Positions 14,157-60,000 of a DNA stretch of 64,000 bases are shown here, piece after piece. The stretch spans positions 7,648,001 through 7,712,000 of the forward strand of contig CP068257.2 in assembly GCA_009914755.4 (NCBI GenBank), given 5' to 3'. The position numbers and the translations under genes were made by a program. How positions within the stretch are numbered: the stretch's first letter is position 1; every line of letters starts with the position of its first letter. Below the pieces are notes generated by a model. The model ran no database searches. It was not told the DNA's origin and saw only the letters and a list, made by a program, of their open reading frames with translations. This DNA comes from the human T2T-CHM13v2.0 reference genome, Homo sapiens.

Positions 14157-14176
14157 ATGGTGTCAGAAGTGGGATC
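14157..14176 (+). promoter_or_regulatory. Retroviral primer-binding site complementary to the tRNA-Leu(CAG) 3' end (PBS-Leu)
   Basis: TGGTGTCAGAAGTGGGATCT against the expected PBS-Leu TGGTGTCAGGAGTGGGATTC, 18 of 20 matching. It lies directly after the LTR end. A Leu PBS is the defining feature of HERV-L. Confidence 0.5.
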
Positions 14177-18938: not shown

Positions 18939-19001
18939 AGAACATCAAGACTAGGAAGAAACTGCGTCAATTAACGAGCAAAATAACCAGCTAACATCAT
19001 A

Positions 19002-22816
<3,815 letters not shown>

Positions 22817-31560: not shown

Positions 31561-31739
31561 TTTGCCCAGCACTTGAGTCCAGTTACACAGAGACCCGGAC
31601 TTAATGTATCAGGACTGGTCCCTACCCAGGTGACACAGATGTGGCATTCTGGTTCTTTATTAAATCCTGGTTTCACAGCCTGGGACATTGTGAAAATAAT
31701 GGAGAAATTTCAATAGAGGCCAATTGGTCTATGCTATGA

Positions 31740-32044
<305 letters not shown>

Positions 32045-33965: not shown

Positions 33966-36067
<2,102 letters not shown>

Positions 36068-39000
36068 GAATGGAATGGAATGGAATGCAATGGAATCAAC
36101 CGGAGTTGAATGGAATGGAACGGAATGGAATGGAATGGAATGAAATGGAATGGAAAGGAATGGAATCAAACCGAGTGGAATGGAATGTAATGGAATGGAA
36201 TGGAAAGGCACGGAATGGAATGGAATGGAATGGAATGGAATGGAATGGAATGGAATGGAATGGAATCAACCCGAGTGGAATGGAATGGAATGGAATCAAA
36301 CTGAGTGGAATGGAATGGAATGGAATGCAATGGAATGTAATGGAGTGGAAGGCATTAGAATCAACTGGAATGGAATGGAGTGGAATGGAATGGAATCAAC
36401 GACAGTGGAATGGAATGGAATGGAATGGATAATAATGGAATGGAATGGAATCAATCTGGGTGGAATGGAATGGAATGGAATGCAATGGAATGGAATGGAA
36501 TCAACTCGAGTGGAATGAAATGTAACGTAATGTAATGTAATGGAATGTAATGGAATGGAATAGAATGGAATCAATTCGAGTGCAATATAATGGTATAGAA
36601 TGGAATGGAATGGAATGGAATGGAATGGAATCAACTAGAGTGGAAACGAATGGAAAGGAATGGAATGGAATGGAATGGAATGGAATGGAATGGAATGGAA
36701 TGGAACGGCATGGAATGGAATGGAATGGAGAGGAATCAACCATAGTGGAATGGAGTGCAATGGACTGTAACGGCATGGAATGGAATGGAATGGAGTGGAA
36801 TAAACACGAGTGGAATGGAATGGAATGGAATGGACTGGAATGGAATGGAATGGAATCAACCCGAGTGCAATGGAATGGAATAGAATGGAATGAAATAAAC
36901 ACGAGTGGAAAGGAATGGAATGGAATGGAATGGAATGGAAGAGAATGGAATGGAATCAACTCGAGTGGAAAGGAAAGGAATGGAAAGGAATGGAATGGAA
37001 TGGAAAGGAATGGAATGCAATGGAATGCAATGTTAGGGAATGGAATCAACCCGAGTGGAATGGAATGGAATGGAATGGAATGGAATGCAATGGAATGGAA
37101 TGGAATGGAATGGAATGCAATGGAATGGAATGGAATCAACTCGAGTGGAATGAAATGTAATGTAATGTAATGGAATGGAATGGAATGGAATGGAATGGAA
37201 TGGAATGGAATGGAATCAATTCGATTGCAATGTAATGGTATAGAATGGAATGGAATGGAATGGAATCAACCAGAGTGGAATGGAATGGAATGGAATGGAA
37301 TGGAATGGAATAGAATGGAATGGAATGGAACGGAACGGAATGGAATGGAATGGAATGGAATGGAACGGAACGGCATGGAATGGAATGGAATGGAGTGGAA
37401 TCAACACGAGTGGAATGGAGTGGAATGGACTGTAATGGCATGGAATGGAATGGAATGGAGTGGAATAAACAAAAGTGGAATTGAATGGAATGGAATGGAC
37501 TGCAATCAACCAGAGTGCAATGGAATGGAATAGAATGGAATGGAATGGAATGGAATGAAATAAACACTAGTGGAATGGAATGGAATGGAATGGAAGAGAA
37601 TGGAATGGAATCAACTCGAGTGGAAAGGAATGGAATGGAAAGGAATGGAATGGAATGGAAAGGAATGGAATGCAATGGAATGCAGTGTTATGGAATGGAA
37701 TCAACCCGAGTGGAAGGGAATGGAATGGAATGGAATGGAATGGAATGGAATGCAATGGAATGGAATGCAATGGAATGGACAGGAATGGAATGGAATGGAA
37801 TTCAATGGAATGGAATGGACAGGAATGGAATGGAATGGAATGGAATGGAATGGAATGGAATGGAATGGAATGGAGTGGAATGGACTAGAATGGAATGGAA
37901 TGGAATGAAATCAACCCGATTGGAATGGAATGGAATGCAATGGAATGGAATGGAATCAACTGGAAAGGAATCAAATGGAACGGAATGGAATAGAATGGAA
38001 TGGATTGGAATGGAATGGAATGGATTCAACCTGAGTGGAATGGAATGGAATAAAATGGAATAATGACGAGTGGAATGGAATGGAATGGAATGGAATGGAA
38101 TAGAATGTAGTCAATTCGAGTGCAATGTAATGGTATAGAATGGAATGGAATGGAATGGAATCAACCAGAGTGGAATGGAATGGAAAGGAAAGGAATGGAA
38201 TGGAATTTAATGGAATGGAATGGAACGGAACGGAATGGAATGGAATGGAATGGAATGGAATGGAATGGAACGGCATGGAATGGAATGGAAAGGAATGGAA
38301 TGCAATGGAATGGAATGTAACGGCATGCAATGGAATGGAATGGAGTGGATTCAACCCGAGTGGAATGGAGTGCATTGGACTGTAACGGCATGGAATGGAA
38401 TGGAATGTAGTGGAATAAACACCAGTGGAATGGAATGGAATGGAATGGAATGGACTGGAATCAACCCGAGTGCAATGGAATGGAATAGAATGGAATGGAA
38501 TGGAATGGAATGAAATAAACACGAGTGGAATGTAATGGAATGGAAAGGAATGGAAGAGAATGGAATGGAATCAAATCGAGTGGAAAGGAATGGAATGGAA
38601 AGGAATGGAATGGAATGGAAAGGAATGTAATGCAATGGAATGCAGTGTTATGGAATGGAATCAACCCGAGTGGAATGGAATGGAATGGAATGGAATGGAA
38701 TGGAATGGAATGGAATGGACTGGAATGGAATGGAATGGAATGGAATGGAATGGAATGGAATGGACTGGAATGGAATGGAATGGAATGGAATGGAATGGAA
38801 TGGAATGGAGTGGAATGGACTAGAATGGAATGGAATGGAATGAAATCAACCCGATGGGAACGGAATGGAATGCAATGGAATGGAATGGAATCAACAGGAA
38901 AGGAATCAAATGGAACAGAATGGAATAGAATGGAATGGATTGGAATGGAATGGAATGGAATCAAACCTAGTAGAATGGAATGGAAAGAATGGAATGAACA

Positions 39001-42000
39001 GGAATGGAATGGAATGGAATGGAATGGAATTTAATGGAATGGAATGGAATGGAATGCAATTTAATAGAATGGAATGGAATGGAATGGAATCAAACTGAGT
39101 GGAATGGAATGGAATGGAATGCAATGGAATGTAATGGAGTGGAAGGCATTAGAATCAACTGGAATGGAATGGAGTGGAATGGAATGGAATGGAATGGATA
39201 ATAATGGAATGGAATGGAATCAATCCGGGTGGAATGGAATGGAATGGAATGCAATGGAATGGAATGGAATCAACTCGAGTGGAATGAAATGTAACGTAAT
39301 GTAATGGAATGGAATGGAATGGAATGGAATAGAATGGAATCAATTCGAGTGCAATATAACGGTATAGAATGGAATGGAATGGAATGGAATGGAATGGAAT
39401 GGAATCAACTAGAGTGGAAACGAATTTAAAGGAATGGAATGGAATGGAATGGAATGGAACGGCATGGAATGGAATGGAATGGAGTGGAATCAACCATAGT
39501 GGAATGGAGTGCAATGGACTGTAACGGCATGGAATGGAATGGAATGGAGTGGAATAAACACGAGTGGAATGGAATGGAATGGAACGGACTGGAATGGAAT
39601 GGAATGGAATCAACCCGAGTGCAATGGAATGGAATAGAATGGAATGAAATAAACACGAGTGGTAAGAAATGGAATGGAATGGAATGGAATGGAAGAGAAT
39701 GGATTGGAATCAACTCCAGTGGAAAGGAATGGAATGGAAAGGAATGGAATGGAATGGAAAGGAATGGAATGCAATGGAATGCAATGTTAGGGAATGGAAT
39801 CAACCCGAGTGGAATGGAATGGAATGGAATGGAATGCAATGGAATGGAATGGAATGGAATGGAATGGAATGGAATGGAATCAATTCGAATGCAATGTAAT
39901 GGTATAGAATGGAATGGAATGGAATGGAATGGAATCAACCAGAGTGGAATGGAATGGAAAGGAATGGAATGGAATGGAATGGAATGGAATGTAACAGCAT
40001 GGAATGGAATGGAATGGAGTGGAATCAACCCGAGTGGAATGGAGTGGAATGGACTGTAATGGTCTGGAATGGAATGGAATGGAATGGAGTGGAATAAACA
40101 CAAGTGGAATGGAATGGAATGGAATGGACCGGAATCAACCAGAGTGCAATGGAATGGAATAGAATGGAACGGAATGGAATGGAATGAAAAAAACACGAGT
40201 GGAATGGAATGGAATGGAATGGAATGGAATTCAATGGAATGGAATGGACAGGAATGGAATGGAATGGAGTGGAATGGACTAGAATGGAATGGAAAGGAAT
40301 GAAATCAACCCGATTGGAATGGAATGGAATGCAATGGAATGGAATGGAATCAACTGGAAAGGAATCAAATGGAACGGAATGGAATAGAATGGAATGGATT
40401 GGAATGGAATGGAATGGATTCAACCCGAGTGGAATGGAATGGAATAGAATGGAATAAACACGAGTGGAATGGAATGGAATGGAATGGAATGGAATCAACT
40501 CGAGTGGAATGAAATGTAATGTAATGGAATGGAATGGAATTGAATGGAATAAACACGAGTGGAATGGAATGGAATGGAATGGAATGGAATGGAATGGAAT
40601 AGAATGGAGTCAATTCAAGTGCAATGGAATGGTATAAAATGGAATCGAATGGAATGGAATAAACCAGAGTGGAATGGAATGGAAAGGTATAGAATGGAAT
40701 GGAATGGAATGGAATGGAACGGAATGGAATGGAATGGAATGGAATGTAACGGCATGGAATGGAATGGAATGGAATGGAATGGAATGGAATGGAATGGAAT
40801 GGAACGGCATGCAATGGAATGGAATGGAGTGGAATAAACACGAGTGGAATGGAATGGAATGGAATGGACTGGAATGGAAAGGAATGGAAGAAAATGGAAT
40901 GGAATCAACACGAGTGCAAAGGAATGGAATGGAAAGGAATGGAATGGAATGGAAAGGAATGGAATGCAATGGAATGCAGTGTTATGGAATGGAATCAACC
41001 CGAGTGGAATGGAATGGAATGGAATGGAATGGAGTGGAATGGAATGGAATGGAATGCAATGGAATGGACAGGAATGGAATGGAATGGAATGGAATGGAAT
41101 GGAATAGAATGGAATGGAATAGAGTGGAATGGACTAGAATGGAATGGAATGGAATGAACTCAACCCTATTGGAATGGAATGGAATGCAATGGAATGGAAT
41201 GGAATGGAATCAACTGGTAAGGAAACAAATGGAACAGAATGGAATAGAATGGAATGGATTGTAATGGAATGGAATGGAATCAAACCTAGTAGAATGGAAT
41301 GGAAAGAATGGAATGAACAGGAATGGAATGGAATGGAATGGAATTTAATGGAATGGAATGGAATTTAATAGAATGGAATGGAATGGAATGGAATGGAATG
41401 GAATGGAATGGAATCAACCCGAGTGGAGTGGAATGGAATGGAATGGAAATGAATGGAATAGAATGGAATGGAATGGAACGGAAAGGAATGGAATGAACCC
41501 GAGTGGAATAGAATGGAATGGAATGGAATGGAAAGGCACGGAATGGAATGGAATGGAATGGAATGGAATGGAATGGAATCAACCCGAGTGGAATGGAATG
41601 GAATGGAATCAAACTGAGTGGAATGGAATGGAATGGAATGCAATGGAATGTAATGCAGTGGAAGGCATTAGAATCAACTGGAATGGAATGCAGTGGAATG
41701 GAATGGAATCAACGCCAGTGGAATGGAATGGAATGGAATGGATAATAATAGAATGGAATGGAATAAATCCGGCTGGAATGGAATGGAATGGAATGCAATG
41801 GAATGAAATGGAATCAACTCGAGTGGATTGAAATGTAACGTAATGTAATGGAATGGAATGGAATGGAATGGAATGCAATGGAATGGAATCAATTCGAGTG
41901 CAATATAATGGTATAGAATGGAATGGAATAGAATGGAATGGAATGGAATGGAATCAACCAGAGTGGAATGGAATGGAATGGAATGGAATGGAATGGACTG

Positions 42001-45000
42001 TAACGGCATGGAATGCAATGGAATGGAGTGGAATCAACCCGAGTGGAATGGAATGGAATGGACTAACGGCATGGAACGGAATGGAATGGAGTGGAATCAA
42101 ACCGAGAGGAATGGAATGGAATGGAATGGAATGGAATGGAATGGAATGGAATAGAATGGAATCAATTCGAATGCAATGTAATGGTATAGAATGGAATGGA
42201 ATGGAATGGAATCAACCAGAGTGGAATGGAATGGAATGGAATGGAATGGAATGGAATAGAATGTAATGGAATGGAACGGAATGGAACGGAATGGAATGGA
42301 ATGGAATGGAATGGAATGGAATGGAATGGCATGGAATGGAATGGAATGGAGTGGAATCAACCCGAGTGGAATGGAGTGGAATGGACTGTAATGGCATGGA
42401 ATGGAATGGAATGGAGTGGAATAAACACAAGTGGAATGGAATGGAATGGAATGGACTACAATCAACCAGAGTGCAATGGAATGGAATAGAATGGAATGGA
42501 ATGGAATGGAATGAAATAAACACGAGTGGAATGGAATGGAATGGAATGGAAGAGAATGGAATGGAATCAACTCGAGTGGAAAGGAATGGAATGGAAAGGA
42601 ATGGAATGGAATGGAAAGGAATGGAATGCAATGGAATGCAGTGTTATGTAATGGAATCAACCCGAGTGGAATGGAATGGAATGGAATGGAATGGAATGGA
42701 ATGCAATGGAATGGACAGGAGTGGAATGGAATGGAATTCAATGGAATGGAATGGACAGGAATGGAATGGAATGGAATGGAATGGAGTGGAATGGACTAGA
42801 ATGGAATGGAATGGAATGAAATCAACCCGATTGGAATGGAATGGAATGCAATGGAATGGAATGGAATCAACTGGAAAGGAATCAAATGGAACGGAATGGA
42901 ATGGAATGGAATGGAATGGAATGGAATGGAATGGAATGGAATCAACCCTAGTGGAATGGAATGGAATGAAATCAAACTGAGTGGAATGGAAGGGAATGGA
43001 ATGCAATGGAATGTAATGGAGTGGAAGGCATTTGAATCAACTGGAATGGAATGGAAAGGAATGGAATGGAATGGAATCAACCCCAGTGGAATGGAATGGA
43101 ATGGAATGGATTATAATGGAATGGAATGGAATCAATCTGGGTGGAATGGAATGGAATGGAATGGATTATAATGGAATGGAATGGAATCAATCCGGGTGGA
43201 GTGGAATTGAATGGAATGGATTGGAATGGAATGGAATGGAATGGATTGGAATTCAATGTAATGGAAACAACCCGAGTGGAATGTAATGGAATGGAAAGGC
43301 CTGGAATGTAATGGAATGGATTGGAATCAACCGGATTCCAATGCAAAGGAATGGAATGGAATGGAATGGAAGGGAATGGAATGGAATGGAAAGGAATGGA
43401 ATGAACTGTAATGGAATGGAATGGAATGGAATTTAATGGAATGGAATGGAATCAACCCGAGTGGAGTGGAATGGAATGGAATGGAAATGAATGGAATAGA
43501 ATGGAATGGAATGGAACGGAACGGAATGGAAAGAACCCGAGTGGAATGGATTGTAATGGAAATGAATGGAATAGAAGGGAATGGAATGGAATGGAACGGA
43601 ATGGAACGAACCCGAGTGGAATGGATTGGAATGGAATGGAATGGAAAGGAACGGAATGGAATGGATTGGAATGGAATCAACCCGAGTGGAATGGAATGGA
43701 ATGCAATCAAACTGAGTGGAATGGAAGGGAATGGAATGCAATGGAATGTAATGGAGTGGAAGGCATTTGAATCAAATGGAATGGAATGGAATGGAATGGA
43801 ATGGAATCAACCCCAGTGGAATGGATTGGATGGGAATGGATTATAATGGAATGGAATGGAATCAATCCGAGTGGAATGGAATGGAATGGAATGGATTATA
43901 GTTGAATGGAATGGAATCAATCCTTGTGGAATGGAGTGGAATGGAATGGAATAGAAAGGAATGGAATTCAATGTAATGGAAACAAACCGAGTGGAATGTA
44001 ATGGAATGGAAAGGACTGGAATCTAATGGAATGTATTGGAATCAACCTGATTCCAATGCAACGGAATGGAATGGAATGGAATGCAATGGAAGGGAATGGA
44101 ATGGAATGGAAAAGAATGGAATAAACTGGAATTGAATGGAATGGAATGGAATTTAATGGAATGGAATGGAATGGAATGGAATGGAATGGAATCAACCCGA
44201 GTGAAGTGGAATGGAATGCAATGGAAATGAATGGAATGGAATGGAATGGAATGGAATCAACCCGAGTGGAGTGGAATGGAATGCAATGGAAATGAATGGA
44301 ATAGAATGGAATGGAATGCAACGGAACGGAATGGAATGAACCCGAGTGGAATGGAATGGAATAGAATGGAATGGAAAGGCACGAAATGGAATGGAATGGA
44401 ATGGAATGGAATGGAATGGAATGGAATCAACCCGAGTGGAATGGAATGGAATTGAATGGAATCAAACTGAGTGGAATGGAATGGAATGGAATGGAATGGA
44501 ATGGAATGGAGTGGAAGGCATTAGAATCACCTGGAATGGAATGGAATGGAATGGAATGGAATGGAATGGAATCAACCCGAGTGGAATGGAATGGAATGGA
44601 ATCAAACTGAGTGGAAAGGAATGGAATGGAATGGAATGGAATGGAATGGAATGGAATCAACCACAGTGGAATGGAATGGAATGGAACAGATTATAATAGA
44701 ATGGAATGGAATCAATCCGGGTGGAATGGAATGGAATGGAATGGAATGGAATGGAATGGAATGGAATCAACTCGAGTGGAATGAAATGTAACTTGATGGA
44801 ATGGAATGGAATGGAATGGAATGGAATGGAATGGAATGGAATACAATGGAATCAATTCGAGTGCCATGTAATGGTATAGAATGGAATGGAATGGAATGGA
44901 ATGAAATGGAATGGAATGGAATGGAATGGAATCATCCAGAGTGGAATGGAATGGAATGGAATGGAATGGAATGGAATATATTGGAATGGAATGGAATGGA

Positions 45001-48000
45001 ATGGAATGGAATATATTGGAATGGAATGCAACGGAATCAACTGGAATGGAATGGAATGGAATGGAATGGATTATAATGGAATGGAATGGAATCAATCCGG
45101 GTGGAATGGAATGGAATGGAATGGAATGGAATGGAATTCAATGTAATGGAAACAAACCGAGAGGAATGTAATGGAATGGAAAGGACTGGAATGTAATGGA
45201 ATGGATTGGAATCAAACCGATTCCAATGCAACGGAATGGAATGCAATGGAAAGGAAAGAAATCAACCCGAATGGAATGGATTGGAATAGAGTGGAGTGGA
45301 ATGGAATAGAATGGCATGGAATGCAATGAAATCAACTAGAATGGAATGGAATGGAATGGAATGAAAAGGAATGGAATGGAATGGAATGGAATGGAATGGA
45401 ATGGAAAGGAATGGAGTGGAATGGAATGCAATGGAATGAAATCAACCCGATTGGAATGGAATGGAATGCAATGGAATGGAATGGAATCAACTGGAAAGGA
45501 ATCAAATGGAACGGAATCGAATGGAATGGAATGGAATGGAATGGAATGGAATGGAACGGAACGGAATCAACCTCTCTGGAATGGAACGGAATGGAATGGA
45601 TTATAATGGAATGGAATGGAATCAATCCGGGTGGAATGGAATGGAATGCAATGGAATGGACAGGAATGGAATGGAATGGAATTCAATGGAATGGAATGGA
45701 CAGGAATGCAATGGAATGTAATGCAATGGAATGGAATGGAGTGGAATGGACTAGAATGGAATGGAATGGAATGAAATCAACCCGATTGGAATGGAATAGA
45801 ATGCAATGGAATGGAATGGAATCAACTGGAAAGGAATCAAATGGAACGGAATGGAATAGAATGGAATGGATTGGAATGGAAAGGAATGGATTCAACCCGA
45901 GTGGAATGGAATGGAATAGAACGGAATAAACACGAGTGGAATGGAATGGAATGGAATGGAATGGAATGGAATGGAATCAACTCGAGTGGAATGAAATGTA
46001 ATGTAATGGAATGGAATGGAATTGAATGGAATAAACACGAGTGGAATGGAATGGAATGGAATGGAATAGAATGGAGTCAATTCAAGTGCAATGGAATGGT
46101 ATACAATGGAATCGAATGGAATGGAATCAACCAGAGTGGAATGGAATGGAAAGGAATGGAATGGAATGGAACGGAACGGAATGGAATGGAATGGAATGGA
46201 ATGGAACGGCATGGAATGGAATGGAATGGAATGGAATGGAATGGAATAGAATATAACGGCATGCAATGGAATGGAATGGAGTGGATTCAACCCGAGTGGA
46301 ATGGAGTGGATTGAACTGTAACGGCATGGAATGGAATGGAATGGAGTGGAATAAACAAGAGTGGAATGGAATGGAATAGAATGGAATGGAATGGAATGGA
46401 GTGAAATAAACTCGAGTGGAATGGAATGGAATGGAATAGAATGGAATGGAATGGAAAGGAATGGAAGAGAATGGAATGGAATCAACTCGAGTGGAAAGGA
46501 ATGGAATGGAAAGGAATGGAATGGAATGGAAAGGAATGGAATGCAATGAAATGCAGTGTTATGGAATGGAATCAACCCGAGTGGAATGGAATGGAATGGA
46601 ATGGAATGGAATGGAATGGAATGGACAGGAATGGAATGGAATGGAATGGAATGGAATGGAATGGAATGGAATGGAATGGAGTGGAATGGACTAGAATGGA
46701 ATGGAATGGAATGAAAACAACCCGATGGGAATGGAATGGAATGCAATGGAATGGAATGGAATCAACTGGAAAGGAATCAAATGGAACGGAATGGAATTGA
46801 ATGGAATGGATTGGAATGGAATGGAATGGAATCAAACCTAGTAGAATGGAATGGAAAGAATGGAATGTACAGGAATGGAATGGAATGGAATGGAATTTAA
46901 TGGAATGGAATGGAATGGAATGGAATTTAATAGAATGGAATGGAATGGAATGGAACAGAATGGAATGGAATCAACCCGATTGGAGTCAAATGAAATGGAA
47001 TGGAAATGAATGGAATAGAATGGAATGGAATGGAACGGAAAGGAATGGCATGAACCCGAGTGGAATGGAATGGAATGGAATGGAATGGAATGGAATGGAA
47101 TGGAATGGAATCGAAAGGCACGGAATGGAATGGAATGGAATGGAATGGAATGGAATCAACCCGAGTGGAATGGAATGGAATGGAATCAAACTGAGTGGAA
47201 TGGAATGGAATGGAATGCAATGGAATGTAATGGAGTGGAAGGCATTAGAATCAACTGGAATGGAATGGAGTGGAATGGAATGGAATCAACGCCAGTGGAA
47301 CGGAATGGAATGGAATGGAATGGATAATAATGGAATGGAATGGAATCAATCCGGGTGGAATGGAATGGAATGGAATGCAATGGAATGGAATGGAATCAAC
47401 TCGAGTGGAATGAAATGTAACGTAATGTAATGTAATGGAATGGAATGGAATGGAATAGAATGGAATCAATTTGAGTGTAATATAACGGTATAGAATGGAA
47501 TGGAATGGAATGGAATCGAATGGAATCAACTAGAGTGGAAACGAATGGAAAGGAATGGAATGGAATGGAATGGAGTGTAATGGAATGGAATGGAATGGAA
47601 TGGAATGGAATGGAATGGAATGGCATGGAATGGAATGGAGTGGAATCAACCAGAGTGGAATGGAGTGCAATGGACTGTAACGGCATGGAATGGAATGGAA
47701 TGGAGTGGAATAAACACGAGTGGAATGGAATGGAATGGAATGGACTGGAATGGAATGGAATGTAATCAACCCGAGTGCAATGGAATGGAATAGAATGGAA
47801 TGAAACAAACACGAGTGGAAAGGAATGGAATGGAATGGAATGGAATGGAAGAGAATGGAATGGAATCAACTCGAGTGGAAAGGAATGGAATGGAAAGGAA
47901 TGGAATGGAATGGAAAGGAATGGAATGCAATGGAATGCAATGTTATGGAATGGAATCAACCCGAGTTGAATGGAATGTAATGGAATGGAATGCAATGGAA

Positions 48001-51000
48001 TGGAATGGAATCAACTCGAGTGGAATGAAATGTAATGTAATGTAATGGAATGGAATGGAATGGAATGGAATGGAATAGAATGGAATCATTTCGAATGCAA
48101 TGTAATGGTATAGAATGGAATGGAATGGAATGGAATCAACCAGAGTGGAATGGAATGGAAAGGAATGGAATGGAATGGAATGGAATGGAATGTAACGGCA
48201 TGGAATGGAATGGAATGGAGTGGAATCAACCCGAGTGGAATGGAGTGGAATGGACTGTAATGGAATGGAATGGAATAGAGTGGAATAAACACAAGTGGAA
48301 AGGAATGGAATGGAATCAAACTGAGTGGAATGGAATGGAATGGAAAGCAATGGAATGTAATGCAGTGGAAGGCATTAGAATCAACTGGAATGGAATGGAG
48401 TGGAATGGAATGTAATCAACGCCAGTGGAATGGATTTTAATAGAATGGATAATAATGGAATGGAAGGGAATCAATCCGGGTGGAATGGAATGGAATGGAA
48501 TGCAATGGAATGAAATGAAATCAACTCGAGTGGAATGAAATGTAACGTAATGTAATGGAATGGAATGGAATGGAATGGAATAGAATGGAATCAATTCGAG
48601 TGCAATATAATGGTATAGAATGGAATGGAATGGAATGGAATGGAATGTAACGGCATGGAATGGAATGGAATGGAATGGAATGGAATGGCATGCAATGGAA
48701 TGGAATGGAGTGGAATAAACACGAGTGGAATGGAATGGAATAGAATGGACTGGAATGGAAAGGAATGGAAGAGAATGGAATGGAATCAATACGAGTGGAA
48801 AGGAATGGAATGGAAAGGAATGGAGTGGAATGGAAAGGAATGTAATGCAATGGAATGCAGTGTTATGGAATGGAATCAACCCGAGTGGAATGGAATGGAA
48901 TGGAATGGAATGGAGTGGAATGGAATGGAATGGAATGCAATGGAATGGACAGGAATGGAATGGAATGGAATGGAACGGAATGGAATGGAATGGAATGGAG
49001 TGGAATGGACTAGAATGGAATGGAATGGAAGGAAATCAACCCTATTGGAATGGAATGGAATGCAATGGAATGGAATGGAATCAACTGGTAAGGAAACAAA
49101 TGGAACAGAATGGAATAGAATGGAATGGATTGTAATGGAATGGAATGGAATCAAACCTAGTAGAATGGAATGGAAAGAATGGAATGAACAGGAATGGAAT
49201 GGAATGGAATGGAATTTAATGGAATGGAATGGAATTTAATAGAATGGAATGGAATGGAATGGAATGGAATGGAATGGAATGGAATGGAATCAACACGAGT
49301 GGAGTGGAATGGAATGGAATGGAAATGAATGGAATAGAATGGAATGGAATGGAACGGAAAGGAATGGAATGAACCCGAGTGGAATGGAATGGAATGGAAT
49401 GGAATGGAATGGAATGGAAAGGCACGGAATGGAATGGAATGGAATGGAATGGAATGGAATGGAATGGAATGGAATCAACCCGAGTGGAATGGAATGGAAT
49501 GGAATCAAACTGAGTGGAATGGAATGGAATGGAATGCAATGGAATGTAATGCAGTGGAAGGCATTAGAATCAACTGGAATGGAATGCAGTGGAATGGAAT
49601 GGAATCAACGCCAGTGGAATGGAATGGAATGGAATGGAATGGATAATAATAGAATGGAATGGAATAAATCCGGCTGGAATGGAATGGAATGGAATGCAAT
49701 GGAATGAAATGGAATCAACTCGAGTGGAATGAAATGTAACGTAATGTAATGGAATGGAATGGAATGGAATGGAATAGAATGGAATCAATTCGAGTGCAAT
49801 ATAATGGTATAGAATGGAATGGAATAGAATGGAATGGAATGGAATGGAATCAACCAGAGTGGAATGGAATGGAATGGAATGGAATGGAATGGAATGGAAT
49901 GGAATGGAACGGCATGGAATGGAATGGAATGGAATGGAATGGAATGGAATGGAATATAACGGCATGCAATGGAATGGAATGGAGTGGATTCAACCCGAGT
50001 GGAATGGAGTGGATTGGACTGTAACGGCATGGAATGGAATGGAATGGAGTGGAATAAACACGAGTAGAATGGAATGGAATAGAATGGAATGGAATGGAAT
50101 GGAGTGAAATAAACTCGAGTGGAATGGAATGGAATGGAATAGAATGGAATGGAATGGAAAGGAATGGAAGAGAATGGAATGGAATCAACTCGAGTGGAAA
50201 GGAATGGAATGGAAAGGAATGGAATGGAATGGAAAGGAATGGAATGCAATGGAATGCAGTGTTATGGAATGGAATCAACCCGAGTGGAATGGAATGGAAT
50301 GGAATGGAATGGAATGGACAGGAATGGAATGGAATGGAATGGAATGGAATGGAATGGAATGGAATGGAATGCAATGGAGTGGAATGGACTAGAATGGAAT
50401 GGAATGGAATGAAATCAACCCGATGGGAATGGAATGGAATGCAATGGAATGGAATGGAATCAACTGGAAAGGAATCAAATGGAACGGAATGGAATTGAAT
50501 GGAATGGATTGGAATGGAATGGAATGGAATCAAACCTAGTAGAATGGAATGGAAAGAATGGAATGTACAGGAATGGAATGGAATGGAATGGAATTTAATG
50601 GAATGGAATGGAATGGAATGGAATTTAATAGAATGGAATGGAATGGAATGGAATGGAATGGAATGGAATGGAATCAACCCGATTGGAGTCAAATGAAATG
50701 GAATGGAAATGAATGGAATAGAATGGAATGGAATGGAACGGAAAGGAATGGCATGAACCCGAGTGGAATGGAATGGAATGGAATGGAATGGAATGGAATG
50801 GAATGGAATGGAATCGAAAGGCACGGAATGGAATGGAATGGAATGGAATGGAATGGAATCAACCCGAATGGAATGGAAAGGAATGGAATCAAACTGAGTG
50901 GAATGGAATGGAATGGAATGCAATGGAATGTAATGGAGTGGAAGGCATTAGAATCAACTGGAATGGAATGGAGTGGAATTGAATGGAATCAACGCCAGTT

Positions 51001-54000
51001 GAATGGAATGGAATGGAATGGAATGGATAATAATGGAATGGAATGGAATCAATCCGGGTGGAATGGAATGGAATGGAATGCAATGGAATGGAATGGAATC
51101 AACTCGAGTGGAATGAAATGAAATGTAACGTAATGTAATGTAATGTAATGGAATGGAATGGAATAGAATGGAATCAATTCGAGTGTAATATAACGGTATA
51201 GAATGGAATGGAATGGAATGGAATCAACTAGAGTGGAAACGAATGGAAAGGAATGGAATGGAATGGAATGGAGTGTAATGGAATGGAATGGAATGGAATG
51301 GAATGGAATGGCATGGAATGGAATGGAATGGAATGGAGTGGAATCAACCAGAGTGGAATGGAGTGCAATGGACTGTAACGGCATGGAATGGAATGGAATG
51401 GAGTGGAATAAACACGAGTGGAATGGAATGGAATGGAATGGACTGGAATGGAATGGAATGGAATCAACACGAGTGAAATGGAATGGAATAGAATGGAATG
51501 AAATAAACACGAGTGGAAAGGAACGGAATGGAATGGAATGGAAGAGAATGGAATGGAATCAACTCGAGTGGAAAGGAATGGAATGGAAAGGAATGGAATG
51601 GAATGGAATGGAAAGGAATGGAATGCAATGGAATGCAATGTTATGGAATGGAATCAACCCGAGTTGAATGGAATGGAATGGAATGGAATGCAATGGAATG
51701 GAATGGAATCAACTCGAGTGGAATGAAATGTAATGTAATGTAATGTAATGGAATGGAATGGAATGGAATGGAATAGAATGGAATCACTTCGAATGCAATG
51801 TAATGGTATAGAATGGAATGGAATGGAATGGAATCAACCAGAGTGGAATGGAATGGAAAGCAATGGAAAGGAATGGAATGGAATGGAATGTAACGGCATG
51901 GAATGGAATGGAATGGAGTGGAATCAACCCGAGTGGAATGGAGTGGAATGGACTGTAATGGAATGGAATGGAATGGAGTGGAATAAACACAAGTGGAAAG
52001 GAATGGAATGGAATCAAACTGAGTGGAATGGAATGGAATGGAAAGCAATGGAATGTAATGCAGTGGAAGGCATTAGAATCAACTGGAATGGAATGGAGTG
52101 GAATGGAATGGAATCAACGCCAGTGGAATGGATTGGAATGGAATGGATAATAATGGAATGGAAGGGAATCAATCCGGGTGGAATGGAATGGAATGGAATG
52201 CAATGGAATGAAATGGAATAAACTCGAGTGGAATGAAATGTAACGTAATGTAATGTAATGGAATGGAATGGAATGGAATAGAATGGAATCAATTCGAGTG
52301 CAATATAATGGTATAGAATGGAATGGAATGGAATGGAATGGAATGGAATCAACCAGAGTGGAATGGAATGGAAAGGAATGGAATGGAATGGAATGGAAAG
52401 GAATGGAATGCAATGGAATGCAATGTTATGGAATGGAATCAACCCGAGTTGAATGGAATGGAATGGAATGGAATGCAATGGAATGGAATGGAATCAACTC
52501 GAGTGGAATGAAATGTAATGTAATGTAATGTAATGGAATGGAATGGAATGGAATGGAATAGAATGGAATCACTTCGAATGCAATGTAATGGTATAGAATG
52601 GAATGGAATGGAATGGAATCAACCAGAGTGGAATGGAATGGAAAGCAATGGAAAGGAATGGAATGGAATGGAATGTAACGGCATGGAATGGAATGGAATG
52701 GAGTGGAATCAACCCGAGTGGAATGGAGTGGAATGGACTGTAATGGAATGGAATGGAATGGAGTGGAATAAACACAAGTGGAAAGGAATGGAATGGAATC
52801 AAACTGAGTGGAATGGAATGGAATGGAAAGCAATGGAATGTAATGCAGTGGAAGGCATTAGAATCAACTGGAATGGAATGGAGTGGAATGGAATGGAATC
52901 AACGCCAGTGGAATGGATTGGAATGGAATGGATAATAATGGAATGGAAGGGAATCAATCCGGGTGGAATGGAATGGAATGGAATGCAATGGAATGAAATG
53001 GAATAAACTCGAGTGGAATGAAATGTAACGTAATGTAATGTAATGGAATGGAATGGAATGGAATAGAATGGAATCAATTCGAGTGCAATATAATGGTATA
53101 GAATGGAATGGAATGGAATGGAATGGAATGGAATCAACCAGAGTGGAATGGAATGGAAAGGAATGGAATGGAATGGAATGGAAAGGAATGGAATGCAATG
53201 GAATGCAATGTTATGGAATGGAATCAACCCGAGTTGAATGGAATGGAATGGAATGGAATGCAATGGAATGGAATGGAATCAACTCGAGTGGAATGAAATG
53301 TAATGTAATGTAATGTAATGGAATGGAATGGAATGGAATGGAATAGAATGGAATCACTTCGAATGCAATGTAATGGTATAGAATGGAATGGAATGGAATG
53401 GAATCAACCAGAGTGGAATGGAATGGAAAGCAATGGAAAGGAATGGAATGGAATGGAATGTAACGGCATGGAATGGAATGGAATGGAGTGGAATCAACCC
53501 GAGTGGAATGGAGTGGAATGGACTGTAATGGAATGGAATGGAATGGAGTGGAATAAACACAAGTGGAAAGGAATGGAATGGAATCAAACTGAGTGGAATG
53601 GAATGGAATGGAAAGCAATGGAATGTAATGCAGTGGAAGGCATTAGAATCAACTGGAATGGAATGGAGTGGAATGGAATGGAATCAACGCCAGTGGAATG
53701 GATTGGAATGGAATGGATAATAATGGAATGGAAGGGAATCAATCCGGGTGGAATGGAATGGAATGGAATGCAATGGAATGAAATGGAATAAACTCGAGTG
53801 GAATGAAATGTAACGTAATGTAATGTAATGGAATGGAATGGAATGGAATAGAATGGAATCAATTCGAGTGCAATATAATGGTATAGAATGGAATGGAATG
53901 GAATGGAATGGAATGGAATCAACCAGAGTGGAATGGAATGGAAAGGAATGGAATGGAATGGAATGGAAAGGAATGGAATGCAATGGAATGCAATGTTATG

Positions 54001-57000
54001 GAATGGAATCAACCCGAGTTGAATGGAATGGAATGGAATGGAATGCAATGGAATGGAATGGAATCAACTCGAGTGGAATGAAATGTAATGTAATGTAATG
54101 TAATGGAATGGAATGGAATGGAATGGAATAGAATGGAATCACTTCGAATGCAATGTAATGGTATAGAATGGAATGGAATGGAATGGAATCAACCAGAGTG
54201 GAATGGAATGGAAAGCAATGGAAAGGAATGGAATGGAATGGAATGTAACGGCATGGAATGGAATGGAATGGAGTGGAATCAACCCGAGTGGAATGGAGTG
54301 GAATGGACTGTAATGGAATGGAATGGAATGGAGTGGAATAAACACAAGTGGAAAGGAATGGAATGGAATCAAACTGAGTGGAATGGAATGGAATGGAAAG
54401 CAATGGAATGTAATGCAGTGGAAGGCATTAGAATCAACTGGAATGGAATGGAGTGGAATGGAATGGAATCAAAGCCAGTGGAATGGATTGGAATGGAATG
54501 GATAATAATGGAATGGAAGGGAATCAATCCGGGTGGAATGGAATGGAATGGAATGCAATGGAATGAAATGGAATAAACTCGAGTGGAATGAAATGTAACG
54601 TAATGTAATGGAATGGAATGGAATGGAATGGAATAGAATGGAATCAATTCGAGTGCAATATAATGGTATAGAATGGAATGGAATGGAATGGAATGGAATG
54701 GAATCAACCAGAGTGGAATGGAATGGAAAGGAATGGAATGGAATGGAATGGAATGGAATGGAATGGAATGGAACGGCATGGAATGGAATGGAATGGAGTG
54801 GAATCAACCCGAGTGGAATGGAGTGGAATGGACTGTAATGGCATGGAATGGAATGGAATGGAATGGAGTGGAATAAACACAAGTGGAATGGAATGGAATG
54901 GAATGGACTGGAATCTACCAGAGTGCAATGGAATGGAATAGAATGGAATGGAATTGAATGGAATGAAATAAACACGAGCGGAATGGAATGGAATGGAATG
55001 GAATGGAGTGGAATGGACTAGAATGGAATGGAATGGAATGAAATCAACCCGATTGGAATGGAATGGAATGCAATGGAATGGAATGGAATCAATTGGAAAG
55101 GAATCAAATGGAACGGAATGGAATGGAATGGAATGGAATGGAATGGAATGGAATGGAACGGAATGGAATCAACCTCTGTGGAATGGAATGGAATGGAATG
55201 GATTATAATGGAATGGAATGGAATCAATCCGGGTGGAATGGAATGGAATGGAACGGAATGGAATGCAATGGAATGGACAGGAATGGAATGGAATGGAATT
55301 CAATGGAATGGAATGGACAGGAATGCAATGGAATGTAATGGAATGGAATGGAATGGAGTGGAATGGACTAGAATGGAATGGAATGGAATGAAATCAACCC
55401 GATTGGAATGGAATGGAATGCAATGGAATGGAATGGAATCAACTGGAAAAGAATCAAATGGAACGGAATGGAATAGAATGGAATGGATTGGAATGGAAGG
55501 GAATGGATTCAACCCGAGTGGAATGGAATGGAATAGAACGGAATAAACACGAGTGGAATGGAATGGAATGGAATGGAATGGAATGGAATGGAATGGAATC
55601 AACTCGAGTGGAATGAAATGTAATGTAATGGAATGGAATGGAAGTGAATGGAATAAACACGAGTGGAATGGAATGGAATGGAATGGAATAGAATGGAGTC
55701 AATTCAAGTGCAATGGAATGGTATACAATGGAATCGAATGGAATGGAATCAACCAGAGTGGAATGGAATGGAAAGGAATGGAATGGAATGGAACGGAACG
55801 GAATGGAATGGAATGGAATGGAATGTAACGGCATGGAATGGAATGGAATGGAATGGAATGGAATGGAATGGAATGGAATATAACGGCATGCAATGGAATG
55901 GAATGGAGTGGATTCAACCCGAGTGGAATGGAGTGGATTGGACTGTAACGGCATGGAATGGAATGGAATGGAGTGAAATAAACTCGAGTGGAATGGAATG
56001 GAATGGAATAGAATGGAATGGAATTGAAAGGAATGGAAGAGAATGGAATGGAATCAACTCGAGTGGAAAGGAATGGATTGGAAAGGAATGGAATGGAATG
56101 GAAAGGAATGGAATGCAATGGAATGCAGTGTTATGGAATGGAATCAACCCGAGTGGAATGGAATGGAACGGAAAGGAATGGAATGCAATGGAATGCAATG
56201 TTAGGGAATGGAATCAACCCGAGTGGAATGGAATGGAATGGAATGGAATGCAATGGAATGGAATGGAATGGAATGGAATGGAATAAAATGGAATCAATTC
56301 GAATGCAATGTAATGGTATAGAATGGAATGGAATGGAATGGAATGGAATCAACCACAGTGGAATGGAATGGAAAGGAATGGAATGGAATGGAATGGAATG
56401 GAATGGAATGGAATGGAATGTAACAGCATGGAATGGAATGGAATGGAGTGGAATCAACCCGAGTGGAATGGAGTGGAATGGACTGTAATGGTCTGGAATG
56501 GAATGGAATGGAATGGAGTGGAATAAACACAAGTGGAATGGAATGGAATGGAATGGACTGGAATCAACCAGAGTGCAATGGAATGGAATAGAATGGAATG
56601 GAATGGAATGGAATGAAAAAAACACGAGTGGAATGGAATGGAATGGAATGGAATGGAATTCAATGGAATGGAATGGACAGGAATGGAATGGAATGGAATG
56701 GAATGGCGTGGAATGGACTAGAATGGAATGGAATGGAATGAAATCAACCCGATTGGAATGGAATGGAATGCAATGGAATGGAATGGAATCAACTGGAAAG
56801 GAATTAAATGGAACGGAATGGAATAGAATGGAATGGATTGGAATGGAATGGAATGGATTCAACCCGAGTGGAATGGAATGGAATAGAATGGAATAAACAC
56901 GAGTGGAATGGAATGGAATGGAATGGAATGGAATGGAATGGAATGGAATGGAATCAACTCGAGTGGAATGAAATGGAATGGAATGGAATGGAATGGAATT

Positions 57001-60000
57001 GAATGGAATAAACACGAGTGGAATGGAATGGAATGGAATGGAATGGAATGGAATGGAATGGAATAGAATGGAGTCAATTCAAGTGCAATGGAATGGTATA
57101 AAATGGAATCGAATGGAATGGAATCAACCAGAGTGGAATGGAATGGAAAGGTATAGAATGGAATGGAATGGAATGGAATGGAACGGAATGGAATGGAATG
57201 GAATGGAATGTAACGGCATGGAATGGAATGGAATGGAATGGAATGGAATGGAATGGAATGGAATGGCATGCAATGGAATGGAATGGAGTGGAATAAACAC
57301 GAGTGGAATGGAATGGAATGGAATGGACTGGAATGGAAAGGAATGGAAGAGAATGGAATGGAATCAACACGAGTGGAAAGGAATGGAATGGAAAGGAATG
57401 GAATGGAATGGAAAGGAATGTAATGCAATGGAATGCAGTGTTATGGAATGGAATCAACCCGAGTGGAATGGAATGGAATGGAATGGAATGGAGTGGAATG
57501 GAATGGAATGGAATGCAATGGAATGGACAGGAATGGAATGGAATGGAAAGGAATGGAATGGAGTGGAATGGACTAGAATGAAATGGAATGGAATGAAATC
57601 AACCCTATTGGAATGGAATGGAATGCAATGGAATGGAATGGAATCAACTGGTAAGGAAACAAATGAACAGAATGGAATAGAATGGAATGGATTGTAATGG
57701 AATGGAATGGAATCAAACCTAGTAGAATGGAATGGAAAGAATGGAATGAACAGGAATGGAATGGAATGGAATGGAATTTAATGGAATGCAATGGAATTTA
57801 ATAGAATGGAATGGAATGGAATGGATTATAATGGAATGGAATGGAATCAATCTGGGTGGAATGGAATGGAATGGAATGGAATGGAATGGAATGGACTGTA
57901 ACGGCATGGAATGCAATGGAATGGAGTGGAATCAACCCGAGTGGAATGGAATGGAATGGACTGTAACGGCATGGAACGGAATGGAATGGAGTGGAATCAA
58001 ACCGAGAGGAATGGAATGGAATGGAATGGAATGGAATGGAATGGAATAGAATGGAATCAATTCGAATGCAATGTAATGGTATAGAATGGAATGGAATGGA
58101 ATGGAATCAACCAGAGTGGAATGGAATGGAATGGAATGCAATGGAATAGAATGTAATGGAATGGAACGGAATGGAACGGAATGGAATGGAATGGAATGGA
58201 ATGGAATGGAATGGCATGGAATGGAATGGAATGGAGTGGAATCAACCCGAGTGGAATGGAGTGGAATGGACTGTAATGGCATGGAATGGAATGGAATGGA
58301 GTGGAATAAACACAAGTGGAATGGAATGGAATGGAATGGACTACAATCAACCAGAGTGCAATGGAATGGAATAGAATGGAATGGAATGGAATGGAATGAA
58401 ATAAACACGAGTGGAATGGAATGGAATGGAATGGAAGAGAATGGAATGGAATCAACTCGAGTGGAAAGGAATGGAATGGAAAGGAATGGAATGGAATGGA
58501 ATGGAACGGAATGGAATGGAATGGAATGGAATGTAACGGCATGGAATGGAATGGAATGGAATGGAATGGAATGGAATGGAATGGAATGGAATATAACGGC
58601 ATGCAATGGAATGGAATGGAGTGGATTCAACCAGAGTGGAATGGAGTGGATTGGACCGTAACGGCATGGAATGGAATGGAATGGAGTGGAATAAACACGA
58701 GTGGAATGGAATGGAATGGAATGGACTGGAATCAACCCGAGTGCAATGGAATGGAATGGAATGGAATGGAATGGAATGGAGTGAAATAAACTCGAGTGGA
58801 ATGGAATGGAATGAAATAGAATGGAATGGAATGGAAAGGAATGGAAGAGAATGGAATGGAATCAACTCGAGTGGAAAGGAATGGAATGGAAAGGAATGGA
58901 ATGGAATGGAAAGGAATGGAATGCAATGGAATGCAGTGTTATGGAATGGAATCAACCCGAGTGGAATGGAATGGAATGGAAAGGAATGGAATGCAATGGA
59001 ATGCAATGTTAGGGAATGGAATCAACCCGAGTGGAATGGAATGGAATGGAATGGAATGCAATGGAATGGAATGGAATGGAATGGAATGGAATAGAATGGA
59101 ATCAATTCGAATGCAATGTAATGGTATAGAATGGAATGGAATGGAATGGAATGGAATCAACCAGAGTGGAATGGAATGGAAAGGAATGGAATGGAATGGA
59201 ATGGAATGGAAAGGAATGGAATGGAATGGAATGGAATGGAATGGAATGGAATGGAATGTAACAGCATGGAATGGAATGGAATGGAGTGGAATCAACCCGA
59301 GTGGAATGGAGTGGAATGGACTGTAATGGTCTGGAATGGAATGGAGTGGAATAAACACAAGTGGAATGGAATGGAATGGAATGGACTGGAATCAACTAGA
59401 GTGCAATGGAATGGAATAGAATGGAATGGAATGGAATGGAATGAAAAAAACACGAGTGGAATGGAATGGAATGGAATGGAATTCAATGGAATGGAATGGA
59501 CAGGAATGGAATGGAATGGAATGGAATGGAGTGCAATGGACTAGAATGGAATGGAATGGAATGAAATCAACCCGATTGGAATGGAATGGAATGCAATGGA
59601 ATGGAATGGAATCAACTGGAAAGGAATCAAATGGAACGGAATGGAATAGAATGGAATGGATTGGAATGGAATGGAATGGATTCAACCCGAGTGGAATGGA
59701 ATGGAATAGAATGGAATAAACACGAGTGGAATGGAATGGAATGGAATGGAATGGAATGGAATCAACTCGAGTGGAATGAAATGGAATGGAATGGAATGGA
59801 ATGGAATTGAATGGAATAAACACGAGTGGAATGGAATGGAATGGAATGGAATGGAATGGAATGGAATGGAATAGAATGGAGTCAATTCAAGTGCAATGGA
59901 ATGGTATAAAATGGAATCGAATGGAATGGAATCAACCAGAGTGGAATGGAATGGAAAGGTATAGAATGGAATGGAATGGAATGGAATGGAACGGAATGGA

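What the first reader, a model, noticed from the sequence alone, without database searches (positions are those of the whole stretch)
46400..52200. ~3.7-kb intra-array duplication whose second copy seeded the 785-bp amplification
Sequence at ~46.4-48.5 kb reappears at ~50.1-52.2 kb with a constant offset of 3,698 bp and ~97-99% identity. ORF-track pairs: 46801/50499, 47505/51203, 47943-48350/51641-52048 and 48050/51748. Small indels lie between them. The end of the second copy is exactly where the 785-bp tandem array begins. This gives a two-step history readable directly from the sequence: a segmental duplication within the satellite, followed by local amplification of one sub-unit in only one of the two copies.
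Basis: seen in the sequence. Interest (0 to 1): 0.55.

Follow-up and report, generated by a model that had tools for sequence, protein, structure and literature searches.

The report
Duplicated block and local amplification in HSat3
Two nearly identical 2.5-kb blocks lie 3.7 kb apart in a human-type satellite 3 array, and the last 785 bases of the second were later copied into four tandem units, which is ordinary satellite turnover and not a new kind of feature.

Summary
Window 46157-48647 (S1) and 49860-52345 (S2) are collinear over about 2.49 kb, with 40 substitutions in 2470 aligned bases (98.4%). Six internal indels are each 5 or 10 nt, so the offset switches between 3703 and 3698.

A 785-bp tandem array spans 51575-54773 (4.08 units). 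U1, U2 and U3 are identical; U4 differs at 2 sites.

- The array does not begin at the end of copy 2. Unit 1 is the last ~771 nt of copy 2 plus 14 nt of right flank (GGAATCAACCAGAGT).
- The unit is flanked by a 39-nt exact direct repeat that copy 1 lacks. This can explain why only copy 2 amplified.
- The amplification came later (0-0.25% versus 1.6-1.7% divergence) and needed at least two rounds.

The claim of one local 3.7-kb duplication is not secured:
- A metagenome contig, L002, carries a third copy at least as close to S1 and S2 as they are to each other.
- The repeat (2.49 kb) is shorter than its offset (3.7 kb).
- The block edges sit on a landmark that recurs about 40 times.
- The array is a mosaic of related blocks.

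The array carries the HSat3B3 marker 24-mer. This is known unequal-exchange dynamics and of low novelty.

The parts
36068..64000 (+). GGAAT-type satellite array (HSat3, subfamily B3 by marker 24-mer). It runs off the window end.
   Evidence: TRF reports period 5 over 36068-63995. There are 100-124 GGAAT per kb and 149 CAACnnGAGT motifs. The HSat3B3-specific 24-mer from PMC4022460 Table 1 is found exactly 12 times, and no other subfamily's 24-mer is found exactly.
46157..48647 (+). Copy 1 (S1) of the ~2.49-kb block. It contains a single 785-bp unit equivalent at 47877-48661.
   Evidence: S2 is the best in-window match in most 250-nt windows.
48648..49859 (+). 1.2-kb 'spacer' (T1). It is an older, shorter relative of the same block type: 93.8% to 46582-47631, and its end is 93.2% to the end of the 785-bp unit.
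   Evidence: offsets 2309/2324 and 2509. One search shows that it starts with an S-start-like sequence lacking the landmark.
49860..52345 (+). Copy 2 (S2) of the block. Its last ~771 nt form unit 1 of the 785-bp array.
51575..54773 (+). 785-bp tandem array of 4.08 units. U1 is 51575-52359, U2 52360-53144, U3 53145-53929 and U4 53930-54714, followed by a 59-nt tail similar to the unit start.
   Evidence: One search gives 99.83% at offset 785. One search shows U1=U2=U3, with U4 differing at unit positions 543 and 681.
52345..52381 (+). Unit junction 37-mer GGAATCAACCAGAGT|GGAATGGAATGGAAAGGAATGG. It is repeated at 53130, 53915 and 54700, and the same 37-mer also lies just left of copy 1 at 46123-46159.
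51575..51613 (+). Left arm of the 39-nt exact direct repeat that flanks the amplified unit (inferred exchange substrate).
   Evidence: One search finds a 39-nt exact match with 54715-54753 at a spacing of 785 once the three added units are removed. The same two positions share only 19 nt in copy 1 and 21 nt in L002.
54715..54753 (+). Right arm of the 39-nt direct repeat, at the start of the block that follows the array (Y).
49851..49860 (+). CAACCAGAGT landmark immediately left of copy 2. Its counterpart left of copy 1 is at 46128-46137.

Best explanation
This is ordinary structural turnover inside a human-type satellite 3 array of subfamily HSat3B3.

**Array structure.** The array is a mosaic of recurring blocks of 0.25-2.5 kb. 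A landmark, ...GGTATAGAATGG(AATGG)nAAT-CAAC[C/T]AGAGT-GGAATGGAATGGAAAGG..., recurs about 40 times and lies at several block transitions, including both edges of the pair described here.

**The two copies.** S1 (46157-48647) and S2 (49860-52345) are two neighbouring members of a ~2.5-kb block family that has at least four members. They diverged about 1.6% ago in substitution terms. Their present 3.7-kb spacing results from unequal exchange, duplication or deletion in the array. It need not be a single parent-to-daughter copy.

**The amplification.** In S2 only, the block start is followed 785 nt later by the start of the next block, and the two share a 39-nt exact direct repeat. Misaligned exchange or replication slippage between these repeats duplicated the intervening 785 nt. 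That unit is the last ~771 nt of S2 plus 14 nt of its right flank. One daughter unit then acquired G>T at unit position 681 and was amplified again to give the identical U1-U3. U4 kept the ancestral G and gained C>A at position 543.

**Shown versus inferred.** The anatomy, the relative ages and the minimum number of steps are shown. The exchange mechanism and the causal role of the 39-nt repeat are inferred. No cellular function is implied for the duplication itself.
For: - **Paralogy and statistics:**
- **Units and their two variant sites, polarised by S1 and L002:**
- **Unit spans the copy-2 boundary:**
- **39-nt direct repeat in copy 2 versus 19 nt in copy 1 and 21 nt in L002:**
- **Age order:** 13/766 versus 2/785 and 0/785.
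- **Single-unit state is ancestral:** S1, L001 and L002 all have CAACTCGAGTGGAAAGG in front of the unit. L002 also has a non-unit right flank.
- **Mosaic and landmark:**
- **Multi-copy family:** L002 is 96.7% and 96.5% identical to S1 and S2 by blastn. Three-way private changes are S1 14, S2 12 and L002 9. Over 883 nt the pairwise differences are S1-S2 15, S1-L002 9 and S2-L002 10.
- **Subfamily marker:** with PMC4022460 Table 1.
- **Literature:** rapid expansion and contraction of HSat arrays by unequal crossover or conversion is stated in PMC4022460. Hyper-local evolution of nested tandem repeats in HSat2,3 arrays is stated in 10.1101/2021.07.12.452052.
Against: - Only one haplotype and only 28 kb of the array were seen, so the order and nature of the older events cannot be resolved.
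- L002 is a short metagenome contig of unknown sample and locus. Assembly errors in it would inflate its distances rather than shrink them, but its origin is unverified.
- End points of high-identity matches are only weakly enriched near the landmark (28% versus 17% within 60 nt). That signal is driven by the non-independent 785-unit ends.
- Near-identity of the units could in principle be maintained by gene conversion and need not reflect recent origin.
Confidence: 0.75

Rival explanations
1. One reading: one local segmental duplication copied S1 to a site 3.7 kb downstream (or the reverse), so that S1 and S2 are parent and daughter. One sub-unit of the new copy was then amplified.
For: S1 and S2 are each other's best in-window match over most of their length. 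They are adjacent, and no other in-window copy of the left 0.9 kb exceeds about 97%. The amplification step is supported.
Against: - L002 is at least as close to each copy as they are to each other.
- In 47657-47906, S1 is closer to 36747 (98.8%) and 39501 (97.2%) than to S2 (96.0%).
- A single unequal exchange gives a repeat length equal to the offset, but here the repeat is 2.49 kb and the offset 3.7 kb, and no T1-like sequence follows the array.
- The right 'breakpoint' is a family-typical block transition in S2, and the deviation is in S1.
Confidence: 0.3
2. Gene conversion, not duplication: a pre-existing diverged block at 49.9-52.3 kb was overwritten by S-type sequence from S1 or from another family member. 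This would give a 2.5-kb patch of high identity in an older framework.
For: The framework already consists of the same block types in the same order. The repeat is shorter than the offset. Dispersed near-identical ~400-bp blocks at 42288, 58173, 61022 and 62172 show that non-tandem homogenisation occurs in this array.
Against: A 2.5-kb tract is long for conversion (general knowledge). Substitutions are spread evenly with no gradient. Nothing distinguishes this reading from duplication followed by rearrangement.
Confidence: 0.12
3. S1 and S2 are two consecutive units of a ~3.7-kb higher-order (nested tandem) repeat of this array. The unit would have decayed at the array edge and be regular further in.
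For: The repeat can be read as 1.67 copies of a 3.7-kb period. The array continues beyond the window. A third S copy exists elsewhere.
Against: - Offsets 3698/3703 occur only at 46.2-48.6 kb within 28 kb of array.
- L002's right flank matches neither T1 nor Y.
- Other large paralogies have unrelated offsets such as 2808, 7312, 9617, 16459 and 19884.
Confidence: 0.1
4. Assembly artefact: the three identical 785-bp units are a mis-assembled expansion or collapse.
For: U1-U3 are 100% identical. Copy number in perfect repeats is a classic source of error.
Against: The whole array is only 3.2 kb and is bounded by unique variants (U4's two sites and distinct flanks). Any long read would span it. This cannot be tested here.
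Confidence: 0.03

Closest known systems
Human satellite 3, subfamily HSat3B3 (Altemose et al. 2014, PMC4022460)
   Same: It is a (GGAAT)n-derived array with interspersed CAACCCGAGT-type 10-mers. The subfamily's most common specific 24-mer is present exactly 12 times, and no other subfamily's marker is present exactly. It is pericentromeric-type sequence abutting L1-rich DNA.
   Different: Assignment rests on one published marker 24-mer per subfamily, not on the full k-mer classifier. The chromosome of origin is unknown; B3 is reported on chromosome 20 and on 1, 4, 5, 7, 13, 14, 21 and 22.
Unequal crossover / replication slippage model of satellite evolution (Smith 1976; Kurnit 1979, cited in PMC4022460), together with hyper-local expansion of nested tandem repeats in HSat2,3 arrays (Altemose et al., 10.1101/2021.07.12.452052)
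   Same: The tandem amplification has a unit bounded by direct repeats. The young copies are local and nearly identical, and they sit inside an older, more diverged mosaic. Periodicity differs from place to place within one array.
   Different: Nothing differs in kind. This is a small instance of four units (3.2 kb) at an array edge, and the exchange mechanism is inferred and not observed.
DYZ1 (HSat3A6), the ~3.6-kb repeat of the Y chromosome
   Same: It is a pentamer-based HSat3 with a repeat length near 3.6 kb, superficially like the 3.7-kb offset here.
   Different: The HSat3A6 marker 24-mer is absent even with 2 mismatches. The 3.7-kb offset occurs once and is not an array-wide period.
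Alpha-satellite higher-order repeat arrays with zones of recent duplication (10.1101/2021.07.12.452052)
   Same: Both show local zones of near-identical recent copies embedded in older layers.
   Different: The monomer is different (171 bp versus 5 bp). There is no regular higher-order unit here and no link to kinetochore position.

Membership tests
HSat2/3 (classical human satellites derived from (CATTC)n) | Dense CATTC/GAATG pentamers on one strand. PMC4022460 uses a threshold of at least 14 occurrences per read. | tested here: met
   There are 100-124 GGAAT per kb on the + strand and 0-1 ATTCC. 57% of the array is exact GGAAT, and TRF gives period 5 over 27.9 kb.
HSat3 as opposed to HSat2 | Pentamer runs interspersed with a CAACCCGAGT-type 10-mer, and absence of the HSat2 ATCGAATGG/CATCAT-rich longer unit. 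This definition comes from my own knowledge of Prosser et al. 1986, which I did not read here. | tested here: met
   There are 149 CAACnnGAGT motifs, 69 of them exact CAACCCGAGT, with a median spacing of 130 nt. ATCGAATGG occurs 9 times and CATCAT 0 times. HSat2 subfamily 24-mers give 0 hits at up to 2 mismatches.
HSat3B3 subfamily | Presence of subfamily-specific 24-mers (Altemose 2014). The most common one is TTCCTTTCCAGTTGATTCCATTCC. | tested here: met
   There are 12 exact and 19 one-mismatch occurrences on the expected strand. All 13 other subfamily markers have 0 exact hits. Only one marker per subfamily was available, so the assignment is provisional.
DYZ1 / HSat3A6 3.6-kb repeat | HSat3A6-specific 24-mers and an array-wide period of about 3.6 kb. 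| tested here: not met
   There are 0 hits at up to 2 mismatches. Offsets 3698/3703 are confined to one interval.
Simple two-copy tandem duplication by one unequal exchange | The length of self-similarity equals the offset, giving two full adjacent copies. | tested here: not met
   Similarity covers 2.49 kb at an offset of 3.70 kb. The sequence after the 785-bp array does not match 48648-49859: about 90% for 100 nt, then about 80% and falling.
Tandem amplification by exchange between flanking direct repeats (the 785-bp array) | Head-to-tail units, a direct repeat at both ends of the array that is ambiguous as to the exact junction, and a single-copy state in relatives. | tested here: met
   There are 4.08 head-to-tail units. 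A 39-nt exact repeat lies at 51575 and 54715. The unit is single in S1 and L002, and L001 has the single-copy left context.
Higher-order / nested tandem repeat with a regular period | The same period recurs along the array. | tested here: not met
   The top offsets are all local and mutually different. Only 28 kb of the array is visible, so a longer or more distal period is not excluded.

The most novel reading that the evidence does not exclude
The recurrent landmark GGTATAGAATGG(AATGG)nAAT-CAACCAGAGT-GGAATGGAATGGAAAGG may act as a preferred register or hotspot for unequal exchange in HSat3B3. Block gains and losses would then be phased on it. In that case the 785-bp expansion would be a very recent event, possibly polymorphic in humans, made possible by the chance creation of a 39-nt perfect direct repeat at the S2/Y junction.
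Probability: 0.2. Interest if true: 0.3.

Novelty: already known. Interest (0 to 1): 0.15.

Why it matters
The practical value is small. The locus gives a clean, fully resolved example of how a satellite array changes:
- the amplified unit spans a block junction;
- it is bounded by a 39-nt direct repeat that is absent from the sister copy;
- two variant sites show at least two rounds of amplification.

The 47-mer and the unit junction could serve as markers to genotype this locus across pangenome assemblies. The finding does not bear on any open question about satellite function.

Tried and rejected
- **The repeat finder** on 45.5-55.5 kb was swamped by the 5-nt periodicity. It gave only the generic background of 73-81%.
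- **TRF** in this tool is limited to periods up to 500, so it reports only the pentamer.
- **A first windowed blastn scan** timed out, and a second used unsupported gap costs. Both were replaced.
- **The background estimate** was badly sampled and is not used.
- **Rfam** at gathering thresholds found nothing in the window.
- **Searches for other haplotypes.**
  - Genome contigs, searched with a 47-mer and with a 24-mer, gave no hits.
  - Viral contigs gave no hits.
- Metagenome contigs gave two short contigs that are paralogues, not orthologues.
- **Landmark as hotspot:** the enrichment is weak and driven by non-independent unit ends, so I make no claim.
- **Extension of homology past 48647 into the sequence after the array:** there is only family-level similarity.
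- **DYZ1** was rejected on marker and periodicity.
- **Absolute dating** was not attempted, because satellite mutation and conversion rates are uncertain.
Full report
**1. Context**

The window holds 36 kb of non-satellite sequence followed by a pentameric satellite that runs from 36068 to the window end.
- The flank contains L1 ORF1/ORF2 fragments at 18.3-22.2 kb. One 460-aa ORF matches human L1 ORF2p structures at E = 4e-279.
- The satellite has 100-124 GGAAT per kb on the + strand only, and 57% of it is exact GGAAT.
- It carries 149 CAACnnGAGT motifs, and TRF reports period 5 over 27.9 kb.
- Of the 14 subfamily marker 24-mers in Table 1 of Altemose et al. 2014 (PMC4022460), only the HSat3B3 marker occurs exactly. 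It occurs 12 times, and the HSat2 and HSat3A6 (DYZ1) markers are absent even at 2 mismatches.
- I therefore file the array as HSat3, provisionally subfamily B3. The chromosome is unknown.

**2. The observation**

Shared 24-mers at offsets 3698 (889) and 3703 (620) are the most frequent after 785 and its multiples. They are confined to 46178-48647.

Stringent blastn returns two abutting matches:
- 46157-47517 vs 49860-51225, at 97.4%.
- 47503-48647 vs 51201-52345, at 97.3%.

A global alignment carried beyond both ends shows 88-100 matches per 100 columns inside the interval and 61-70 outside it.

MAFFT gives 40 substitutions in 2470 aligned positions (98.38%; 17 transitions, 23 transversions), spread at 2-7 per 250 nt. 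There are six internal indels of exactly 5 or 10 nt. These whole-pentamer indels explain why the offset moves between 3703, 3698, 3708 and 3693.

For comparison, arbitrary in-register 300-nt stretches are 73-81% identical. Other members of the same block families are mostly 84-97% identical.

Two of the three named k-mers are nevertheless not specific. A specific 47-mer is given.

**3. The 785-bp array and its relation to copy 2**

At offset 785 the self-match runs 51575-53988 vs 52360-54773 with 4 mismatches in 2414 nt, which is 4.08 units.
- U1, U2 and U3 are identical.
- U4 differs at unit position 543, where U4 has A and U1-3 and S1 have C.
- U4 also differs at position 681, where U1-3 have T and U4 and S1 have G. 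L002 also has G there.

U1-3 therefore share a derived state and U4 has a private one. The array needed at least two rounds: a first duplication, then mutations, then re-amplification of the T-bearing unit.

Unit 1 is the end of copy 2. Copy 1 has the single equivalent at 47877-48661. The S1/S2 homology stops at 48647/52345, which is 14 nt before the unit junction 52359|52360. The unit ends ...GGAATCAACCAGAGT, whereas copy 1 reads GTAACGGCATGGAAT at that point.

The amplified unit thus includes 14 nt of copy 2's right flank. This independently places the amplification after that junction existed.

The divergence figures agree:
- S1 vs U1: 13 substitutions in 766 nt.
- U4 vs U1: 2 in 785 (Fisher p = 0.004).
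- U1 vs U2: 0 in 785 (p = 1e-4).

**4. Why only copy 2 amplified (inference)**

The first 39 nt of the unit (51575-51613) are identical to the 39 nt that follow the last unit (54715-54753). Before amplification, a 39-nt perfect direct repeat therefore stood at a spacing of 785 nt.

The same two positions share only 19 nt (a generic GGAAT run) in copy 1 and 21 nt in the external copy L002. Misaligned exchange or slippage between the 39-nt repeats gives exactly the observed junction.

The repeat exists in copy 2 for two reasons:
- The block is followed there by the canonical start of the next block, CAACCAGAGT-GGAATGGAATGGAAAGG....
- Copy 2 has one extra GGAAT in its own start.

Copy 1 lacks the landmark at its right end. 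Relative to the six other family-typical transitions at 36580, 38120, 39349, 41898, 49794 and 60845, copy 1 carries a deletion there.

**5. The array is a mosaic, and the 'duplication' is not a clean two-copy event**

A self-comparison of the 28-kb array lists 336 matches of at least 250 nt, mostly at 90-99% identity, at many unrelated offsets. For most 200-nt windows the best match elsewhere in the array is 90-100% identical.

The CAAC[C/T]AGAGT landmark occurs about 40 times. It lies immediately left of S1 (46128), immediately left of S2 (49851) and at every unit end.

The 1.2-kb 'spacer' 48648-49859 is itself an older and shorter relative of S. It is 93.8% identical to 46582-47631, and its end is 93.2% identical to the unit end.

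The self-similar length (2.49 kb) is shorter than the offset (3.70 kb), which one unequal exchange cannot give. The sequence after the array does not continue the homology with 48648 onward.

Within S1, two sub-regions have a better in-window partner than S2. For 47657-47906, the partner at 36747 is 98.8% identical while S2 is 96.0%.

**6. A third copy outside the window**

The S1/U-specific 47-mer was searched in public collections. There was no hit in genome contigs or viral contigs, and two short metagenome contigs were found. These are presumably host DNA; the samples are unknown.

L002 (OOQC01006812.1, 1724 nt) aligns to S1 47068-48647 at 96.7% and to S2 at 96.5%.
- It has the single-unit left context, CAACTCGAGTGGAAAGG.
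- It has a third kind of right flank.

Three-way site patterns over 1.58 kb:

| Pattern | Sites |
|---|---|
| S1 private | 14 |
| S2 private | 12 |
| L002 private or S1+S2 stem | 9 (six clustered at the contig end) |

Over 883 nt, with L001 and two in-window paralogues as outgroups, S1-S2 differ at 15 sites, S1-L002 at 9 and S2-L002 at 10. At nearly every S1/S2 difference, L002 has the majority state.

S1 and S2 are therefore not demonstrably each other's closest relatives. S is a family of at least four members that extends beyond this window. The single-unit state is ancestral, and the amplification is specific to S2.

**7. Verdict on the interpretation**

The second step is well supported and can be sharpened. 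It was a local amplification in one copy only, younger than the split of the copies. It spans the copy's right junction, is bounded by a 39-nt direct repeat, and took at least two rounds.

The first step, a single 3.7-kb segmental duplication, is one possibility among several (sections 5 and 6). The alternatives are two members of an older multi-copy family brought to their present spacing by later exchanges, a conversion patch, or remnants of a longer period. It cannot be decided from one haplotype.

**8. Comparison with what is known**

Expansion and contraction of HSat2,3 arrays by unequal crossover or conversion is the textbook model (Smith 1976 and Kurnit 1979, as cited in PMC4022460). 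The T2T centromere study reports new nested tandem repeats in HSat2,3 arrays. [quoted passage not shown]

The feature here is a small instance of exactly that. I rate it as already known in kind, with low interest. Its only distinctive value is as a tidy worked example and as a possible genotyping marker.

**9. Limits**

- No orthologous haplotypes or ape sequences could be obtained.
- The assembly itself could not be checked.
- The subfamily call rests on one marker per subfamily.
- The exchange mechanism is inferred.
- The suggestion that the landmark is a preferred exchange site is not established: 28% versus 17% of match ends lie within 60 nt, and the signal is driven by the repeated unit ends.

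Noticed in passing
window 42288-42693, 58173-~58500, 61022-61427, 62172-62577: A block of about 400 nt is present four times, dispersed over 20 kb and nearly identical. There are 1-2 mismatches in 406 nt among three copies, and the fourth has 1 mismatch in its first 329 nt. It is as young as the 785-bp array but not tandem, which suggests recent conversion or dispersed copying within the array (offsets).
   Followed up: partly
window 55953-57817 vs 58761-60626: This is a second kb-scale intra-array paralogy, with offsets 2808-2828 and 96.8-97.9% identity in three pieces. Like the 3.7-kb pair, its repeat length (1.9 kb) is shorter than its offset.
   Followed up: no
window 36068 (array start) and 35800-36067: The satellite begins abruptly after A-rich sequence that looks like L1 ORF2 coding sequence on the + strand. 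The array edge therefore appears to abut or interrupt a truncated L1. This is seen in the raw sequence and was not tested by alignment.
   Followed up: no
window 18279-22208 (+): L1 ORF1-like and ORF2-like open reading frames are present. The 460-aa ORF at 20278-21660 matches human LINE-1 ORF2p (PDB 8uw3, residues 429-887) at E = 4e-279. The element is broken into several ORFs and so is inactive.
   Followed up: partly
window 36109-37101: The very first block of the array is itself a member of the S family. It is 94-96% identical by blastn to 46994-48011 and has 97.7% substitution identity to S1 47129-48011.
   Followed up: partly
L001 (OONO01005601.1) and L002 (OOQC01006812.1): Two metagenome contigs consist entirely of this HSat3 block family, presumably host DNA carried into metagenome assemblies. 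L002 looks close to the ancestral S sequence, with only about 2 private changes in 883 nt.
   Followed up: partly
window 14001-16000 and 31001-32000: GC-rich patches (GC 0.52-0.56) occur in the otherwise AT-rich flank. They were not examined.
   Followed up: no
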